This document shows, one piece after another, positions 35,380-41,000 of a DNA stretch of 64,000 bases (position 1 is its first letter; every line of letters begins with the position of its first letter). The notes beneath the pieces are model-generated. The model saw nothing but the letters and a program-made list of their open reading frames with translations. It searched no databases and was not told the DNA's origin. The stretch is from Psammoneis japonica. Its lineage: Eukaryota. A program made the position numbers and the translations under genes. Location of the stretch: NCBI GenBank assembly GCA_008632985.1, contig QPGO01000057.1, positions 248,001 to 312,000 on the forward strand, given 5' to 3'.

Positions 35380-38300
35380 TGGGTCTTTTCAGTTGGTTGC
35401 CCCAACACAGTGAGTCATGGCATGATGACTTGCCCTTTTCAGAAATGTGTTGAGGCAGTTGGTGCTTCGACTGGGCAGTTGCGGTGAATTTCTTGCTGCC
35501 CTTGCCAACAATTCTGGAGGACACTGAGCTTTTTCTGTTGGTGTTCTTGTGGCTTGTCTCAAACCCCTTCCAGCATGAACAGGGTTGTTCCATTGTCTCC
35601 AGCTCATCTCCCCATCAGCTCACCATCACTGTTGTTGCTCACTTTGCGTCTGCACAACCATTCCCTTAACTCAACCCTTGCAAGCTCACCTTGGACAGGA
35701 GTCTTTCTGACACACTGCCAGTGACAGTCCAGTCACCCACCTCTTGCTGCACTGCAACAAATCTGAGATCTTGTCAGACTGACAGACAGGTGGGGAGCCA
35801 CCCATGGTCCCATCTCAGAGTGTTGCCTCTGTGGCTGCTTCATCCTCTTAGTTTGGACACTGTGGGCAGCTCAAGAAAAAACAGAAAGCTCTGTTGAAAT
35901 CCCTGCAATCTTTCTGCGCGAGCTTGTTGGTGATGTGCTGGGCGCTGCAAGGAACAAACTGAGTCACCCAACTGCTGCAAATCCACAAAATGGTCATGAA
36001 AAATGGATCAAGATTGGACCACGCACCTGTGCACACAACATGCTTTGGGTCAAAGTTTGGTCATTGTGCAGCTGGCCCAATGCCACTGGCACTCTTTGGC
36101 CTGCCTGATGTTGCAGTGGAGCCAACAAGTCCAAGCCAGGCAAACAAATCTCATGTCGGTGAAGTGAGTGGCACAAGCTTGAGCACCCAGCAATGGCAGG
36201 GACAGTTGCTCATTGCTGTGTGCACATGATCAAAGGTGGCAGAAGTTTTGCAGCTGTGTGACAGCACTTCTCTCTCATGACAGTTTTGTTGTCATTGCTC
36301 ACATGCTGCTCATTGCAAGATCACAAAAGTTGCTGGCGAGTCTAGAAAGCGTTTTTCTGACTGCAGCATCATGACTCCAGCTCTTTGCACTGATGGCTTT
36401 GATTTGGGAAGAGCATTTGTGACACCCACTGTGCACTTGACTTCATCAGAGTTGCCCTCTCCACCAGCAGAAATGACACACCTCTTCATGAAGCAAGAAA
36501 AAATGATGGCTTCAAACAGTGCAAAGGAGGATCCATGGGGAAGCTGTGACATGATGCACAGTGTTTTGCAGAATGATGCATGCAGCAGCTCACCATCATG
36601 CAACTTGACAAGCTCTTGCAGCTGGGAGCACTTGTGGGCAATGCCATGCTCCTAATTTGCCCTGAGGGTTCACTCTAAAAAGGGCGCCACACTGCCTGCA
36701 AACATGGCACACCCATGCTTGACCCTTTTGTGCTCATGCACTCCACACTGCTGCATGAAATGGACTCTTCAATTTCAAGTCTGGCACACTCAGCTTCCAC
36801 TGAGTCAAGTGTGTTGTTGAGTCTTGAGTGGACTTGTGCACCAGGTTGGGAGCTTTCTTTTCTTCCTGCCTGCCAATGGCATGGCGAGCACAGCACCGCC
36901 AAGTGGAAAGTGGTTGCAGCACCAAGAAGTGCATTGTTCAGCCACTTGCCACCATGGGTGTCTGTGTGCCAAGCTCTTGGGTGCTGTGCATGAGTCAATT
37001 CCAGCAATGTGCCAGAGCAGGCCTGGGGGTTGGCACTTTTTTTGCATCATCTCAAGCAAGTTGCTCTTTTTCACATCATGGCCAGCATTGCTGTGTCCAC
37101 CAATGCAGTCATTTTCTTGTGTGACAAAGGCCTCAACACCCCCTGGCTGAGTTGACGTTGTTGCTGGAAAATTCTTCTTGTGCACTTTCTGCACCTTGTT
37201 TTGGGTGCAAAGAAAAAAGATCTTTCCAAAATGCCCCTCCTGATCAGAGGCTGTTTCTGCAATCCTGCAGCAGCCAGCCCCAGAGGGAAATCCTTCTCAA
37301 CTTTTCTCTGGTGGCTTGTGATTTGAAGCACTCAGACTCTTGTGGCACATTTCATTGTGACCCTTTGTGCAGCCTGGCCCTTTGACAATGTGCGCCCATT
37401 TTCATGTTTTGTTTTCTTGCTGAAGTTAACTTGAGCTGCAATTTTTTGCAAAATTTCTTGCTTTTTCTTGCACTGGTCATTGCTTGCACCTCTCCATCAG
37501 CTTTGTCAACTTCCTTTTGCCCCGTGCATCATTCTCTGCTTCTTTGCTGGCCTTGCCACACACTTTGGTTCAACTTTTTTCAGTCAGCCATGAAGAACTT
37601 GACTGGCTTTTTGGCCCCTTGCTTTGAGCAGGCATGACAGTGAGAGTGCAAAGCAAGGCTTCTCAATCAATCATTTCTTGACAAACTCATTGTGTTGACA
37701 AGGAAAGCTGTCAATGAAGCATGAAGCACACACCTGCAGCAACAACAAGGGTCACTCTTAAAGAGCACGCAAGAACAAAGGTGAAAAAACATGGTGCACC
37801 ATGGTGACTGCAACTTCTGTGGATTTTTGTGCAAGGGGGTGCCACATGTGCTCAAATGAGGTTGAACTTTGTGGTGGCCTTGAAAGCAAAAAATGCAGCC
37901 CCCCACCAGCACACAAAATCAAAGAGGGAAGGCCTCCCCTCACTCTCTGCAGACCATTTTGCATGGAAGATGAAACAGATGGAAAATCTGAAAAAAATGA
38001 GGTGCGTGAAAGATTTCTGCTGCACTTCTCCTGCGCAACTCAGCACTTGATGGAGAGCACCAAGAAGTGAGCTGCAAGAAGCAGATTTGTCAAAGCCATT
38101 CTCCATTTTTGAGCAAAGCTCTTTTTGTCAACCTTGTGTCTGCAGAGAGTGTGTCCACAGGTGAGTGTTGCAGCTGAAGTCCATGACACACCCTTGCTGA
38201 TGCAGGCTGAGTCTTTGATGAGCATGACCCTTGTCATTTTGCAGGACTTGATGATGGTGGGCTGTTGTTGTTGTTTTGTTGTTGTTCATGTTGTTGTTCA

Positions 38301-41000
38301 TGTTGTTGCAGGTGTGGCAAGTTCTGGAAAAGCATTTTTTGCTGCCTTCAAGTGGTCTTGAACACCATTCATCATTCTTCATGACTGATGCAGTGCATCA
38401 TTTTCTTGAGAGGTGGGAAATTGTGGCACCCAGTTGATGCAGAAAATGTGCAGGAGGAAGGAAGTGTTGCAAGGAGAGATGTGTGGCAGAACTCAGCACC
38501 AACAAACAGACCTGGAAGATGACACAGGTGGAAAATCTGAAAAAAGGGGTGCATGGAAGATTTCTGCTGTGCTTCTCCTGTGCAACTCAGCACTTGATGG
38601 AGAGCACCAAGAAGTGAGCTGCAAGCAGATTTGTCAAAGCCATTCTCCATTTTTGAGCAAAGCTCTTTTTGTCAACCTTGTGTCTGCAGAGAGCATGTCC
38701 ACAGGTGAGTGTTGCAGCTGGAGTCCATGACACACCCTTGCTGATGCAGGCCAAGTCTTTGATGAGCATGACCCTTGTCATTTTGCGGGGCTTGATGATG
38801 GCATGTTGTTGTTGTTGTTGTTGTCATTGTTGTTGTTGTTGTTGTTCACATTGTTCACGTTGTTGCAGGTGTGGTGAGTTCTGGAAAATTGTTTTTTGCT
38901 GCCTTCAAGTGGTCTTGAACACCACCATCATTCTTCATGACTGATGCAGTGCATCATTTTCTTGAGAGGTGGGAAATTGTGGCACACCCAGTTGATGCAG
39001 AAAATGCACAGGAGGAAGAAAGTGTTGCAAGAAGAGATGTGTGGCAGAACTCAGCACCAACAAACAGACCTGCCAACCTGACAAACCAGTGTTTGTGACT
39101 TGTCTTTTGCACGCAAAGAGCACACAACATGTTCTTTTGATTTCCTTGGAATGTTTTTTTGGGGGGGGGGGGCAGGAGAGACTGAATTGCACTTGGGCTT
39201 GGGCAGGAAAATCTGTCTGTCTTTGCTTGCTTGCTTGCTTTTTGCCCCGTGAAAATGATGATGAATCCATCTGTGTCTCCCCCTGCCCTGACCCTGAACC
39301 GGAGACATGCGGGCAAGACGAAGTTGGGGTTTGGGGCTGACCACTTTAAAAATGACCAAATTTGCATGTGGTCTTTGCATGTGAAATGGCATCCAATGAC
39401 TTTCGAAGGCTTCAGCACTTGACAAATTTGCTGCACAAATTCATGTGCAAGACTGCAAATTTTGAATTGCCACAGTCATTTTTGGGTTGGGATGCCATTG
39501 ACTCCTGGCCAATCGATTGGCGATTTTTCAATTTTGAGGTCATCAACCACAAATGTTTGAATGCCAGTTGCTTTGTCATTCAATTGTTTGCCCTCGGGTG
39601 TGAATGTGACATGCACAGCAGGACTTGGGCAGGCAGCACATGCAAAGCTGTCATGACAAATTTTTGGGTTTTGTCTGCTTTTTGCGTGCAAGCTTGCTTT
39701 CAAACCGGTGATCATGCGTGCAGACAACTCAAACCCCTTTGTTTTCATGCCTGACAAGGACGGTCACACAATGCAAGCCTGGATTGTTGTTGCATTGTTA
39801 AAATCAACATGTCCAATGTTTGCAACCTGCATTGCAAGGTCATTTGCAGCAGGAGCCTGAGAGTTTTCTCAAAGCCCTCTTGCAGCATGCCTGGAGTGAT
39901 CAAGGGTGCCAACGACATGACCTTCATTTTCCTGCCATCAAGCTTCTTCCTGAGATGAAGCCCCTTTCTTTTTGTCACTCTAGACAGAACCACATGAACC
40001 CAGTTGTCTCTGTGGTCAAAGTTGTTGACAACTGGGCTCTCTGTTGCCCTCCCCCCTGGGAGCTTGTGTGCAATTGTTGCGTTGTTGTTGCACAAAACCA
40101 GGAGCTGAGTCATCTGCATCCTCCAACTGATTTTTTGAAGTTCTGTCATCAATGAAACCCATCACAGGGACAGGAAAGTTGGCAGCACACATCTCTCTTC
40201 TTGGAGCCACACAAAACAGACCTCCCCATGTGCTTGCCGCCTTTCCTCATGCCTCAAGACAATGGACTCCACTTGCAAAATGCAGGCTGACCTCACTCTG
40301 TGACTGTCAATCATCATCAACTCCAAATCACCTGGAAAAACACCTTCCTTCAGCTGAACTCCCTGGAAAAAGCCAACAGTGCTGCTGGCCTCCTTTTCTC
40401 TTCACGCCCTTGTCAAGGTGCTTGTCGCCATCAGTCAGATGGCAGCCATGGCAAAGGTTGAGAAGTGGGTCCACATGCCTTGATTTGTTCCCAGCTTGCT
40501 TGACATGAGCATCCAGATGGCTGCAAACAAAATGTTTTTGGGCAGCTCATCTTTTAAAATGTGCCTTGTGACACTCTGCTTTTTTCCACTTGAGGTTGCT
40601 TGCAGCGTGCACATGGCATGTGGACCACAAGGTGGCTGCACAAGAGATTTTGACTGTGTTCTCTCTAACATCTTCGTGAAAATGCCATCATTGACAGCAT
40701 TCCAGTCAAGATTGGCGGCAGTGGCATGGGCTGCATTCTCCCAGTGTTTCGCTGCCAGGCACAGGGATGCAATGACGCAGTTGTTGATTTCCTTCACATC
40801 AGCCCTCGAGTTGTTCAAAAGCATGTGAAAAAATCTCACCCTGCACTGGACCACCCTCAAATCGGTGGTTTCCTCTGGGTTTGACAAAACACCAACCAAT
40901 TGAGCCATTCACGCCATTGTTCAAAGTCTTTGGCGCAGGCAAACAGCAAAGCCCAATGACTTTGTGGGTGTCAAATTTTTATCTCAGCTCCGTCACACAT
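35380..41000 (-). mobile_element. Composite hypermutated TE island containing a Helitron/Pif1-type helicase relic (~39750-40900)
   Basis: Minus-strand remnants VDPLLNLCHGC, QMTQLLVLCNNNATIAHKL.G and WVHVVLSRV match the Pif1 C-terminal motifs (T.HK.QG; YVALSRV), with Y replaced by H or C; whole island is nearly TpA-free. Confidence 0.7.
37964..39071. repeat. ~550-bp tandem duplication (37964-38512 / 38513-39071) with an internal (TTG)n microsatellite
   Basis: Copies align end to end, from tggaagatga to cagcaccaacaaacagacc. Confidence 0.93.

What the first reader, a model, noticed from the sequence alone, without database searches (positions are those of the whole stretch)
35380..40980. Repeat-targeted TpA erasure with a YTAR-sparing context rule: a candidate reverse-RIP genome-defence mutator
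Seen: in this ~5.6-kb TE island I found about a dozen TpA, against several hundred expected at this base composition (2 in 37381-37980). Every survivor I found is YTAR: TTAA at ~35667, 37426, 37759, 39346, 39798, 40554; TTAG ~35848; CTAG ~36342, 39980; CTAA ~36652, 36675, 40666. TAY/RTA is gone and TG/CA are in excess. The conserved Pif1 motif YVxLSRV reads HVVLSRV (TAT->CAT), while the tctaga in the same motif survives. Established: 5mC deamination removes CpG but not TpA, and fungal RIP creates TpA. Inference: a context-specific A:T->G:C transition process acts on repeats, for example a DNA adenine deaminase or an error-prone Pol eta-like repair pathway recruited to silenced chromatin. It would inactivate TEs by wiping out Tyr codons. 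I do not know of a description of this process in diatoms.
Basis: partly seen in the sequence, partly recalled or inferred. Interest (0 to 1): 0.92.

Follow-up and report, generated by a model that had tools for sequence, protein, structure and literature searches.

The report
TpA-erased transposon relics in a diatom
Stretches of dead mobile DNA in this diatom-like genome have had nearly every T-A step changed to T-G or C-A, the long-term footprint of a targeted mutation process so far reported only from one unrelated alga.

Summary
Window 35380-40980 has 12 TpA against 381 expected (o/e 0.03). All 12 are YTAR. CpG o/e is 0.15 and TG/CA 1.8. Four more sharp-edged islands lie in the window.

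A contig of a public run, k-mer depth 59, reproduces 3,065 bases with 5 differences. A basecalling artefact is therefore unlikely.

Positions 39907-40740(-) are a Helitron helicase relic. All 3 conserved Tyr columns read His.

Of 80 metagenome loci that encode relatives of this helicase (Helitron/Pif1-type), 74 have TpA o/e 0.47-1.03 and 6 carry erased segments.

Two pairs of a TpA-normal and an erased copy polarise the change. In L008->L007, 71 of 87 TpA became TG or CA; YTAR sites were kept 7 of 20, other contexts 4 of 67.

It is reversed 36:16 in the pairs.

"Repeat-targeted" is not shown.

A 2026 preprint (10.64898/2026.01.13.699255) saw TpA->TpG/CpA hypermutation arise live in Bigelowiella natans. 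I found no report for diatoms.

Verdict: real, a new member of a just-described kind. The enzyme is unknown.

The parts
35360..40979 (.). Island I3: domain with TpA and CpG erased (the reported finding)
   Evidence: 12 TpA against 381 expected; CpG o/e 0.15; TG 1.78; CA 1.85. Edges taken from TpA positions.
39907..40740 (-). Relic of the C-terminal ~280 residues of a Helitron Rep/Hel (Pif1-like) helicase. It lies in one reading frame, with in-frame stops in the tblastn alignments.
   Evidence: phmmer found 129 proteins at E<=1e-3. The long hits carry Helitron_like_N plus PIF1. tblastn: P0121 E 6e-40, P0122 E 1e-32. All 3 conserved Tyr columns read His.
39996..39998 (-). Example Tyr->His codon (CAT) in the motif WV[Y->H]VVLSRV. 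The neighbouring C-TA-G at 39981 survives.
   Evidence: Codon table. The column is Tyr in 116 of 128 aligned homologues.
37964..39072 (+). Internal tandem duplication: two units of about 550 bases, 90.6% alike
   Evidence: Self-blastn. 545 aligned columns, 36 differ. These include 8 TG<->CA doublets and 4 single CG<->TG/CA differences.
39280..40990 (.). Multi-copy part of the island (the Helitron family)
   Evidence: Summed contig depth is 550-3,400 against 59 for the single-copy part. CA<->TG doublets occur among the copies.
17669..19228 (.). Island I1: TpA erased, CpG little affected
   Evidence: 3 TpA in 1,560 bases; CpG o/e 0.64-0.68 in the 18001-19000 bins.
25474..27080 (.). Island I2
   Evidence: 8 TpA in 1,607 bases; CpG o/e 0.28-0.73.
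44222..46075 (.). Island I4
   Evidence: 13 TpA in 1,854 bases; CpG o/e 0.15-0.39.
60161..64000 (.). Island I5, which runs off the end of the window
   Evidence: 24 TpA in 3,840 bases, 17 of them YTAR; CpG o/e 0.19-0.49.

Best explanation
The island is the degraded 3' part of a Helitron. It carries a helicase C-terminal relic and about 4.5 kb of downstream non-coding sequence, and is cut off on the right by a younger repeat. It is one of at least five domains in this window in which a TpA-directed transition process has run almost to saturation.

At each TpA step, either the A became G (giving TpG) or the T became C (giving CpA). The rate depends on the flanks. RTAY, YTAY and RTAR are lost fastest. 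YTAR is lost slowly, and TTAA is the slowest context in this genome. A second, separable process, CpG->TpG/CpA decay as expected from cytosine methylation of silenced elements, acts on most but not all of the same domains.

The result is dead coding sequence. Tyr codons become His or Cys, in-frame stops appear, and TATA motifs are removed.

I read this as the long-term footprint of the same kind of process that was seen arising de novo in mutation-accumulation lines of Bigelowiella natans, here in a diatom-like stramenopile.

Shown: the signature, its sharp confinement, its mutational nature, the direction TpA->TpG/CpA, and the relative sparing of YTAR.

Inferred:
- It is enzyme-driven and targeted at silenced mobile or foreign DNA (about 0.7).
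- The chemistry is deamination of adenine in DNA by an ADAT2/TadA-like deaminase with a 5'-T-A-Y preference (about 0.45).
- The CpG loss is due to 5mC (about 0.7).
For: - Signature and confinement.
- Unlikely to be a basecalling artefact: one 7,911-base contig of run X1 at k-mer depth 59.3 covers 35000-38064 with 5 differences and no gaps. All 5 are transitions. Three lie in a CpG of one version or the other, and one is TG (window) against TA (contig).
- Mutational: all 3 conserved Tyr columns read CAY. In 62 conserved columns Y->H is the commonest change. There are in-frame stops. The tandem duplicate differs by 8 TG<->CA doublets within 36 differing columns. TATA occurs 0 times against 22 expected.
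- Relatives are not intrinsically TpA-poor: 74 of 80 metagenome loci have o/e 0.47-1.03, and the median Tyr content of 129 homologues is 3.2%.
- Direction, pair 1: L008 and L009 (two contigs, 99-100% alike here) have TpA o/e 1.00, TG 1.15, CA 1.06. L007, the same element, has TpA 0.17, TG 1.86, CA 1.67. Of 87 TpA, 40 became TG, 31 became CA, 11 were kept and 5 changed otherwise. A>G plus T>C make 89 of 133 substitutions.
- Direction, pair 2: L003->L004. Of 31 TpA, 19 became TG or CA. The reverse change is seen at only 3 of 13.
- Context: YTAR kept at 7 of 20 against 4 of 67 for other contexts.
- Separable from CpG loss: I1 and L004 (45 CpG in each copy).
- Same kind of process seen experimentally: in B. 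natans, 230 of 231 single-nucleotide mutations in two integrated viral regions were A>G or T>C, all of them on TpA, and the genome holds 124 TpA-depleted, CpA+TpG-enriched clusters (preprint Results).
Against: - No intact copy of this family from the window's own genome could be examined, because no whole genome is held. The other copies laid at 80% likeness or more also look TpA-free.
- Run X1 may be the sample the window was assembled from, and its platform is not on record. The artefact test rests on k-mer depth and contig length.
- The polarised pairs come from metagenome contigs of unknown organisms. L007's abrupt switch from about 100% to about 85% identity could be an assembly join between two copies.
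- Polarity is inconsistent: the window gives 3 of 3 YTAY->YCAY, while the pairs give 36:16 the other way.
- The detail of the sparing also differs. TTAA density in the window's islands is 0.87 of that outside, but only 2 of 9 TTAA were kept in L007. The 2-kb core of L024 has no TpA at all.
- Four of the five islands, and the left 3.9 kb of this one, have no recognisable mobile-element protein.
- No enzyme was identified.
- The assignment to diatoms rests on one gene.
Confidence: 0.78

Rival explanations
1. The genetics are the same but the chemistry differs. The thymine of TpA is enzymatically oxidised by a TET/JBP-type enzyme to 5-hydroxymethyl- or 5-formyl-uracil. This base mispairs with G at replication, giving T->C on either strand.
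For: A>G and T>C are complementary and equally frequent (49 and 40). Sequence alone therefore cannot say which base of the pair is attacked. The ~2:1 polarity can be read equally well as R-T*-A. From recall, not from any call: 5hmU is enriched at TpA in dinoflagellate DNA, and 5-formyluracil mispairs with G.
Against: No call bears on base modification. The only experimental paper proposes adenine deamination, also without proof. If the modified bases persisted they would be expected to give mixed CA/TG reads, yet the contig is clean.
Confidence: 0.12
2. Error-prone repair synthesis by a Pol-eta-like polymerase (WA-motif A>G errors) is recruited to methylated repeats, for example after 5mC deamination mismatches.
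For: TpA and CpG loss coincide in I2 to I5 and in four metagenome loci. From recall: Pol eta errors favour A in WA motifs, and TA most of all.
Against: The specificity is essentially absolute for TpA. Outside TpA, about 3 substitutions in L008->L007 fit AA->AG, against 71 of 87 TpA changed. AA/TT o/e in the island is 1.25-1.32, so these are not depleted. TpA loss occurs without CpG loss in I1 and in L004. In B. natans all the GC-ward hypermutations lie on TpA.
Confidence: 0.04
3. The composition is intrinsic. The elements, or a virus they derive from, evolved TpA and CpG avoidance before they integrated, and no host mutator is involved.
For: No intact copy from the same genome was available for comparison. 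TpA o/e is already 0.5-0.7 in the host genes.
Against: Invariant Tyr residues of the helicase motifs are replaced and in-frame stops are present. TG<->CA doublets arose after an internal duplication. The TpA-normal against erased pairs argue the same way. So do the 74 of 80 relatives with normal TpA.
Confidence: 0.03
4. Sequencing or assembly artefact: modified bases in heterochromatin are miscalled as G or C.
For: The platform of run X1 is not on record, and it may be the source data set.
Against: A contig built from 31-mers, 7.9 kb long at mean depth 59, needs accurate reads, and it agrees at 3,060 of 3,065 bases. The same signature appears in contigs of at least five other assemblies (L004, L007, L012/L013/L024, L047). 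It also appears in Tyr-free database proteins. An artefact would not choose TG or CA consistently at each site.
Confidence: 0.03

Closest known systems
TpA-specific hypermutation of integrated giant-virus and virophage DNA in Bigelowiella natans (Mettrop et al., bioRxiv 10.64898/2026.01.13.699255). I read the abstract, the Results and the Discussion, and ran a term search of the main text.
   Same: The changes are exclusively TpA->TpG/CpA and are confined to foreign or mobile DNA with sharp limits. The long-term trace is clusters depleted in TpA and enriched in CpA+TpG, including reverse-transcriptase and DDE genes. The proposed agent is an ADAT2-like adenine deaminase.
   Different: That work is on a rhizarian; this window is from a diatom-like stramenopile. 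There the live regions still hold TpA (Rho 0.45); here erasure is near saturation (o/e 0.03). Its main text has no flank-context rule, no CpG and no diatoms (term search). Its supplements were not readable. Here the process is inferred from its footprint and was not measured.
Repeat-induced point mutation (RIP) of fungi
   Same: A heritable transition mutator, dependent on dinucleotide context and confined to unwanted DNA, that destroys coding capacity.
   Different: The direction is opposite. RIP turns CpA into TpA and so enriches TpA. Here TpA is destroyed and CpA/TpG enriched. Dependence on duplication is not shown here.
CpG decay of cytosine-methylated transposons
   Same: CpG o/e is 0.08-0.4 with TG/CA excess in I2 to I5, and the loss is confined to the islands.
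   Different: It cannot remove TpA, and it is separable from the TpA loss. I1 and L004 lose TpA with little or no CpG loss.
Polynucleotide adenosine deaminases (TadA/ADAT2-3 on tRNA U33-A34; ADAR on dsRNA)
   Same: They change A to I, which is read as G, and prefer a U/T on the 5' side. The ~2:1 preference here for T-A-Y resembles the U-A-C of the TadA substrate (the resemblance is recalled, not tested).
   Different: Their known natural substrates are RNA. Here the change is fixed in genomic DNA on both strands. No enzyme was examined.

Membership tests
TpA-targeted hypermutation of foreign/mobile DNA (B. natans type) | Substitutions are A>G/T>C and fall on TpA, giving TpG or CpA | tested here: met
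   L008->L007: 71 of 87 TpA became TG or CA, and 89 of 133 substitutions are A>G or T>C. L003->L004: 19 of 31. In the window: 3 of 3 Tyr->His and 8 TG<->CA doublets.
TpA-targeted hypermutation of foreign/mobile DNA (B. natans type) | Confined to discrete domains of foreign or mobile origin and does not spread into host genes | tested here: inconclusive
   The edges are sharp, and for I2 lie within tens of bases of flanking ORFs. Mobile origin is shown only for 39907-40740, the Helitron relic. The other islands gave no significant Pfam match.
TpA-targeted hypermutation of foreign/mobile DNA (B. natans type) | [quoted passage not shown] | tested here: met
   Five islands in 64 kb have TpA o/e 0.00-0.16 and TG/CA o/e mostly 1.4-2.3 in their interior 500-base bins.
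TpA-targeted hypermutation of foreign/mobile DNA (B. natans type) | De novo rate raised about 1000-fold in mutation-accumulation lines | not testable with these tools
   Only one run holds the stretch. It differs from the window at 5 of 3,065 bases, which is too few to give a rate.
Fungal RIP | C>T at CpA, producing TpA excess and CpA/TpG deficit | tested here: not met
   TpA o/e 0.03 and CA/TG o/e 1.8. The polarised direction is TpA->CpA/TpG.
Fungal RIP | Triggered by sequence duplication | tested here: inconclusive
   Positions 35000-38064 are single-copy by depth. Positions 39280-40990 are multi-copy. The adjacent higher-copy repeat is unaffected.
Pol-eta WA-motif mutagenesis | A>G at both TA and AA | tested here: not met
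   About 3 AA-context events against 71 TpA events. AA/TT are not depleted.
Helitron (Rep/Hel transposon) | Pif1-like helicase C-terminus homologous to that of Rep/Hel proteins | tested here: met
   129 hits. The ~1,900-residue hits carry Helitron_like_N plus PIF1 and match at their C-termini.
Helitron (Rep/Hel transposon) | Rep (HUH) domain and the 5'-TC / CTRR-3' termini | tested here: not met
   tblastn with full-length homologues matches only 39600-40800, so the element is truncated at 40980. I did not search for termini in the eroded sequence.

The most novel reading that the evidence does not exclude
A targeted DNA-level TpA editing defence (A to I, or T oxidation) is widespread among marine protists. 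It appears in a rhizarian (published), in this diatom-like stramenopile, and in the unknown eukaryotes behind 6 of 80 environmental loci encoding relatives of this helicase. It shares a flank specificity: YTAR is protected and T-A-Y mildly preferred. It works alongside cytosine methylation but independently of it, to kill transposons by removing Tyr codons and TATA motifs. In effect it is a 'reverse RIP' that predates or recurs across eukaryotic supergroups.
Probability: 0.45. Interest if true: 0.88.

Novelty: new member of a known kind. Interest (0 to 1): 0.7.

Why it matters
A TpA-specific hypermutation of foreign DNA has one experimental report, from one chlorarachniophyte. The same footprint, run to saturation, in a diatom-like genome and in several environmental contigs suggests the process is not a curiosity of one lineage. 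It may be a general protist genome defence comparable to RIP.

The window and the metagenome pairs add three things that the preprint's main text does not give. They give a graded flank rule: YTAR, and in this genome especially TTAA, is protected. They give a roughly 2:1 product polarity, which constrains the enzyme's motif to T-A-Y or R-T-A. They also show that TpA erasure and CpG decay are separable.

There are practical consequences. Such islands defeat homology-based TE annotation: 111 island ORFs gave no significant Pfam match. They produce spuriously long ORFs, because TGA is then almost the only stop codon left. They also yield Tyr-free 'proteins' in public databases.

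Tried and rejected
- The whole genome is not held.
- Pfam on 111 stop-to-stop ORFs of 70 aa or more from all five islands gave no family above its curated cut-off. There were three weak sub-threshold hits (GBP, HRG, MU117), which I take as chance.
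I did not pursue this by another route.
- Rfam over the whole window: 0 matches.
- Earlier findings of this scan: nothing.
- The listing of cluster members for the Tyr-free homologues could not be sent, so their sources stay unknown.
- The protein-atlas search, meant as a second taxon marker, did not complete twice.
- Runs X2 and X3 gave next to no cover and say nothing.
- Polarity estimated from tetranucleotide excess against the non-island background was unstable between islands: the estimated fraction TAY->TGY ranged from 0.50 to 1.64. TGCA against CATG (220 against 162) leans the same way as the pairs. I treat both as weak evidence.
- A 72-base unit repeated across the left edge (35259-35329 outside, 35383-35453 inside) is too short and too diverged to polarise anything.
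- L012 against L013 (84% alike, both partly erased) gave 8 doublets and 12 TA<->TG/CA singles among 199 differing columns. That is too diverged to be useful.
- A strand-specific model (one DNA strand only) is rejected, because TG and CA are both in excess in every 500-base bin of the island.
- The ORFs of I1, I2, I4 and I5 look non-protein-like.

Full report
**1. The observation**

Window 35380-40980 holds 12 TpA where base composition predicts 381 (o/e 0.03). TG and CA stand at 1.78 and 1.85.

All 12 survivors are YTAR: TTAA x6, CTAA x3, CTAG x2, TTAG x1. Outside the islands YTAR makes up 390 of 2,143 TpA, so 12 of 12 has p = 1.3e-9.

The edges are abrupt. TpA density is normal up to 35359 and again from 40980/41000.

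A 500-base scan shows that this is one of five such domains in the 64 kb:
- I1, 17669-19228
- I2, 25474-27080
- I3, 35360-40979 (the reported island)
- I4, 44222-46075
- I5, 60161-64000, which runs off the window end

Pooled, 41 of 60 surviving TpA are YTAR (p = 2e-17). Without I3 the figure is 29 of 48 (p = 1e-10).

The sparing is graded. Relative to the density outside the islands, TTAA stands at 0.87, CTAA at 0.40, TTAG at 0.15 and CTAG at 0.14. The twelve other contexts stand at 0.00-0.10. In I1, TpA is erased (3 in 1,560 bases) while CpG o/e stays at about 0.65.

**2. Is the sequence real?**

No whole genome is held. One public run (X1) holds 0.86 of the sampled words.

Laid on 35000-41400, one 7,911-base contig of that run, at mean 31-mer depth 59.3, covers 35000-38064 with 5 differences and no gaps. 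All five are transitions. Three lie in a CpG of one version or the other. One is TG in the window against TA in the contig.

Contigs of that length and depth need accurate reads. A miscall on modified bases would give mixed CA/TG reads at each site. I therefore regard a basecalling artefact as unlikely. Two caveats apply: the platform is not on record, and the run may be the source sample.

The same call shows that 35000-39000 is essentially single-copy. Positions 39280-40990 are multi-copy (summed depth 550-3,400). The sequence just right of the island (40992-41400) is an even higher-copy repeat (3,900-7,100) with normal TpA and CpG.

**3. What the island is**

Pfam found no significant match in 111 island ORFs.

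Seven of these were scanned against Pfam:
- the two ~1,900-residue proteins have Helitron_like_N plus PIF1 and match at their extreme C-termini;
- three others have PIF1;
- two have no family.

tblastn with all 129 places the relic at 39907-40740 on the minus strand, in one frame with in-frame stops. The best matches are P0121 (E 6e-40) and P0122 (E 1e-32). Nothing matches elsewhere in the window.

So the island is the 3' end of a Helitron: the last ~280 residues of Rep/Hel plus about 4.5 kb of downstream sequence. It is truncated at 40980 beside the unaffected repeat. The flanking genes are eukaryotic. The [FeFe]-hydrogenase at 42307-43950 has its best named relatives in diatoms (Attheya 56%, Amphora 52-53%). 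Its best hit overall is 70%, so the organism is not in the protein database and is not B. natans.

**4. Mutational or compositional?**

In the relic, 44 of 62 well-conserved columns are unchanged. The commonest change is Y->H (3 columns). All 3 conserved Tyr columns read CAY. They include the WV-Y-VVLSRV motif, which is Tyr in 116 of 128 homologues.

An internal tandem duplication (37964-38514 against 38513-39072) differs at 36 of 545 aligned columns. Sixteen of those columns form 8 adjacent TG<->CA doublets. That pattern means an ancestral TA or CG was resolved independently in each copy after the duplication.

TATA occurs 0 times in the islands against 22 expected.

Relatives are not TpA-poor by nature. 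A scan of metagenome contigs matched 450 stretches, of which 337 encode relatives; the best 80 were kept as loci. Of these, 74 have TpA o/e 0.47-1.03. Four (L024, L047, L013, L012) have TpA 0.05-0.20 together with CpG 0.02-0.14 and TG/CA 1.75-1.93. L007 is partly erased. L029 is merely GC-rich. A window scan finds erased segments in 6 of 80 loci.

Among the 129 database homologues, 6 have no Tyr at all (103-226 residues; median Tyr content 3.2%). In the 10 Tyr-poorest, 21 of 33 residues at conserved Tyr columns are Cys (13) or His (8).

**5. Polarised spectrum**

Two natural pairs were found.

Pair 1. L007 is about 100% identical to L008/L009 for about 1,420 columns. It then drops to about 85%. 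In that second part, L008 and L009 (99-100% alike) are compositionally normal: TpA o/e 1.00, TG 1.15, CA 1.06, CpG 1.04. L007 is not: TpA 0.17, TG 1.86, CA 1.67, CpG 0.56. L007 is therefore the derived state.

Over 1,001 usable columns there are 133 substitutions. A>G accounts for 49 and T>C for 40, and 78 fall within a TpA of L008. Of the remaining 55, 12 are CpG transitions and about 3 fit AA->AG.

Of 87 TpA sites, 40 became TG, 31 became CA, 11 were kept and 5 changed otherwise. Retention by context:

| Context | Kept |
|---|---|
| YTAR | 7 of 20 |
| RTAR | 3 of 19 |
| YTAY | 1 of 29 |
| RTAY | 0 of 19 |

YTAR against the rest gives Fisher p = 0.002.

Pair 2. L003->L004 (92% alike over 977 bases). 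Of 31 TpA, 19 became TG or CA, 2 became CG, 1 became AA and 9 were kept. Only 3 of 13 TpA in L004 correspond to TG or CA in L003. CpG count is 45 in both copies.

**6. Which product forms**

In the pairs the opposite is favoured:
- YTAY gave TG 18 to CA 7, and RTAR gave CA 10 to TG 6. That is 28:13 (p = 0.03).
- In pair 2 the ratio is 8:3.
- Codon data from erased metagenome loci agree: at conserved Tyr preceded by a pyrimidine there are 5 Cys to 1 His.
- In the window, TGCA (220) exceeds CATG (162).

The window's own three Tyr sites, however, are all YTAY->YCAY. The polarity is therefore a roughly 2:1 tendency, not a rule. It remains unsettled for this genome.

The specificity for TpA itself is near absolute, and ApA is untouched. 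This argues against a Pol-eta-type WA signature.

**7. Comparison with what is known**

A full-text search found one directly relevant paper: Mettrop et al., bioRxiv 10.64898/2026.01.13.699255. I read the abstract, the Results and the Discussion, and ran a term search of the main text.

In mutation-accumulation lines of Bigelowiella natans, 231 of 302 nuclear single-nucleotide mutations fell in two integrated viral regions, and 230 of those 231 were A>G or T>C, all of them on TpA. The rates were about 1000-fold above background. The hypermutation occurred only in some lines. The genome holds 124 TpA-depleted, CpA+TpG-enriched clusters with TE-type domains over-represented. An ADAT2-like deaminase is proposed.

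Its main text mentions no flanking context, CpG or diatoms.

Searches combining diatom with TpA/TpG/CpA, RIP, dinucleotide or mutation-accumulation terms found no description in diatoms. Passages of the Phaeodactylum mutation-accumulation paper (PMC6604790) report CG/CC/TG as the mutable contexts and a GC->AT bias, with no TpA effect.

**8. Verdict**

The finding is best filed as a second lineage, plus environmental instances, of a process first reported in 2026. It adds a graded flank rule and shows that TpA erasure and CpG decay are separable. The chemistry and the targeting signal remain inferred.

Noticed in passing
window 17669-19228: Island I1 has lost TpA (3 in 1,560 bases) while CpG o/e stays at about 0.65. 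It carries a 59-base internal repeat (18319-18377 against 18607-18665) and two long overlapping minus-strand ORFs (286 and 274 aa). These are probably artefacts of a sequence in which TGA is almost the only stop codon left.
   Followed up: partly
window 40992-41400 (extent to the right not determined): A very high-copy repeat (summed contig depth 3,900-7,100 against 59 for single copy) abuts the island. It has normal TpA (o/e 0.8) and a CpG-rich start. High copy number alone therefore does not bring on the erasure.
   Followed up: partly
L007 against L008/L009 (metagenome loci), alignment columns ~1420-2600: The same Helitron is seen as a TpA-normal copy and as an erased copy, with an abrupt switch just after the helicase ORF. 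It is either a domain-limited mutation or an assembly join between two copies. It is a ready-made substrate for deriving the context rule.
   Followed up: yes
database proteins P0131, P0144, P0146, P0174, P0239, P0249: These are Tyr-free predicted 'proteins' (103-226 aa) homologous to Helitron helicases, with Cys or His at conserved Tyr columns. TpA-erased relics are being called as genes in public data. Their sources could not be looked up.
   Followed up: partly
window 4207-5999: An 893-base tandem duplication, 92.7% alike (4207-5099 against 5107-5999), lies inside the 1,850-aa ORF that carries a TOG domain (3680-9232).
   Followed up: no
window 42307-43950: An intact [FeFe]-hydrogenase (HydA-type) gene with large and small subunit domains. 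Its best named relatives are diatoms at 52-56% identity, followed by green algae at about 50%.
   Followed up: partly
window 35259-35329 and 35383-35453: A unit of about 72 bases is repeated across the left edge of the island. The outer copy keeps CTAG and TTAA, while the inner copy has neither.
   Followed up: partly
L024 500-2500: The 2-kb core of this erased metagenome locus has no TpA at all, not even TTAA. The degree of YTAR protection may therefore differ between organisms or with age.
   Followed up: no
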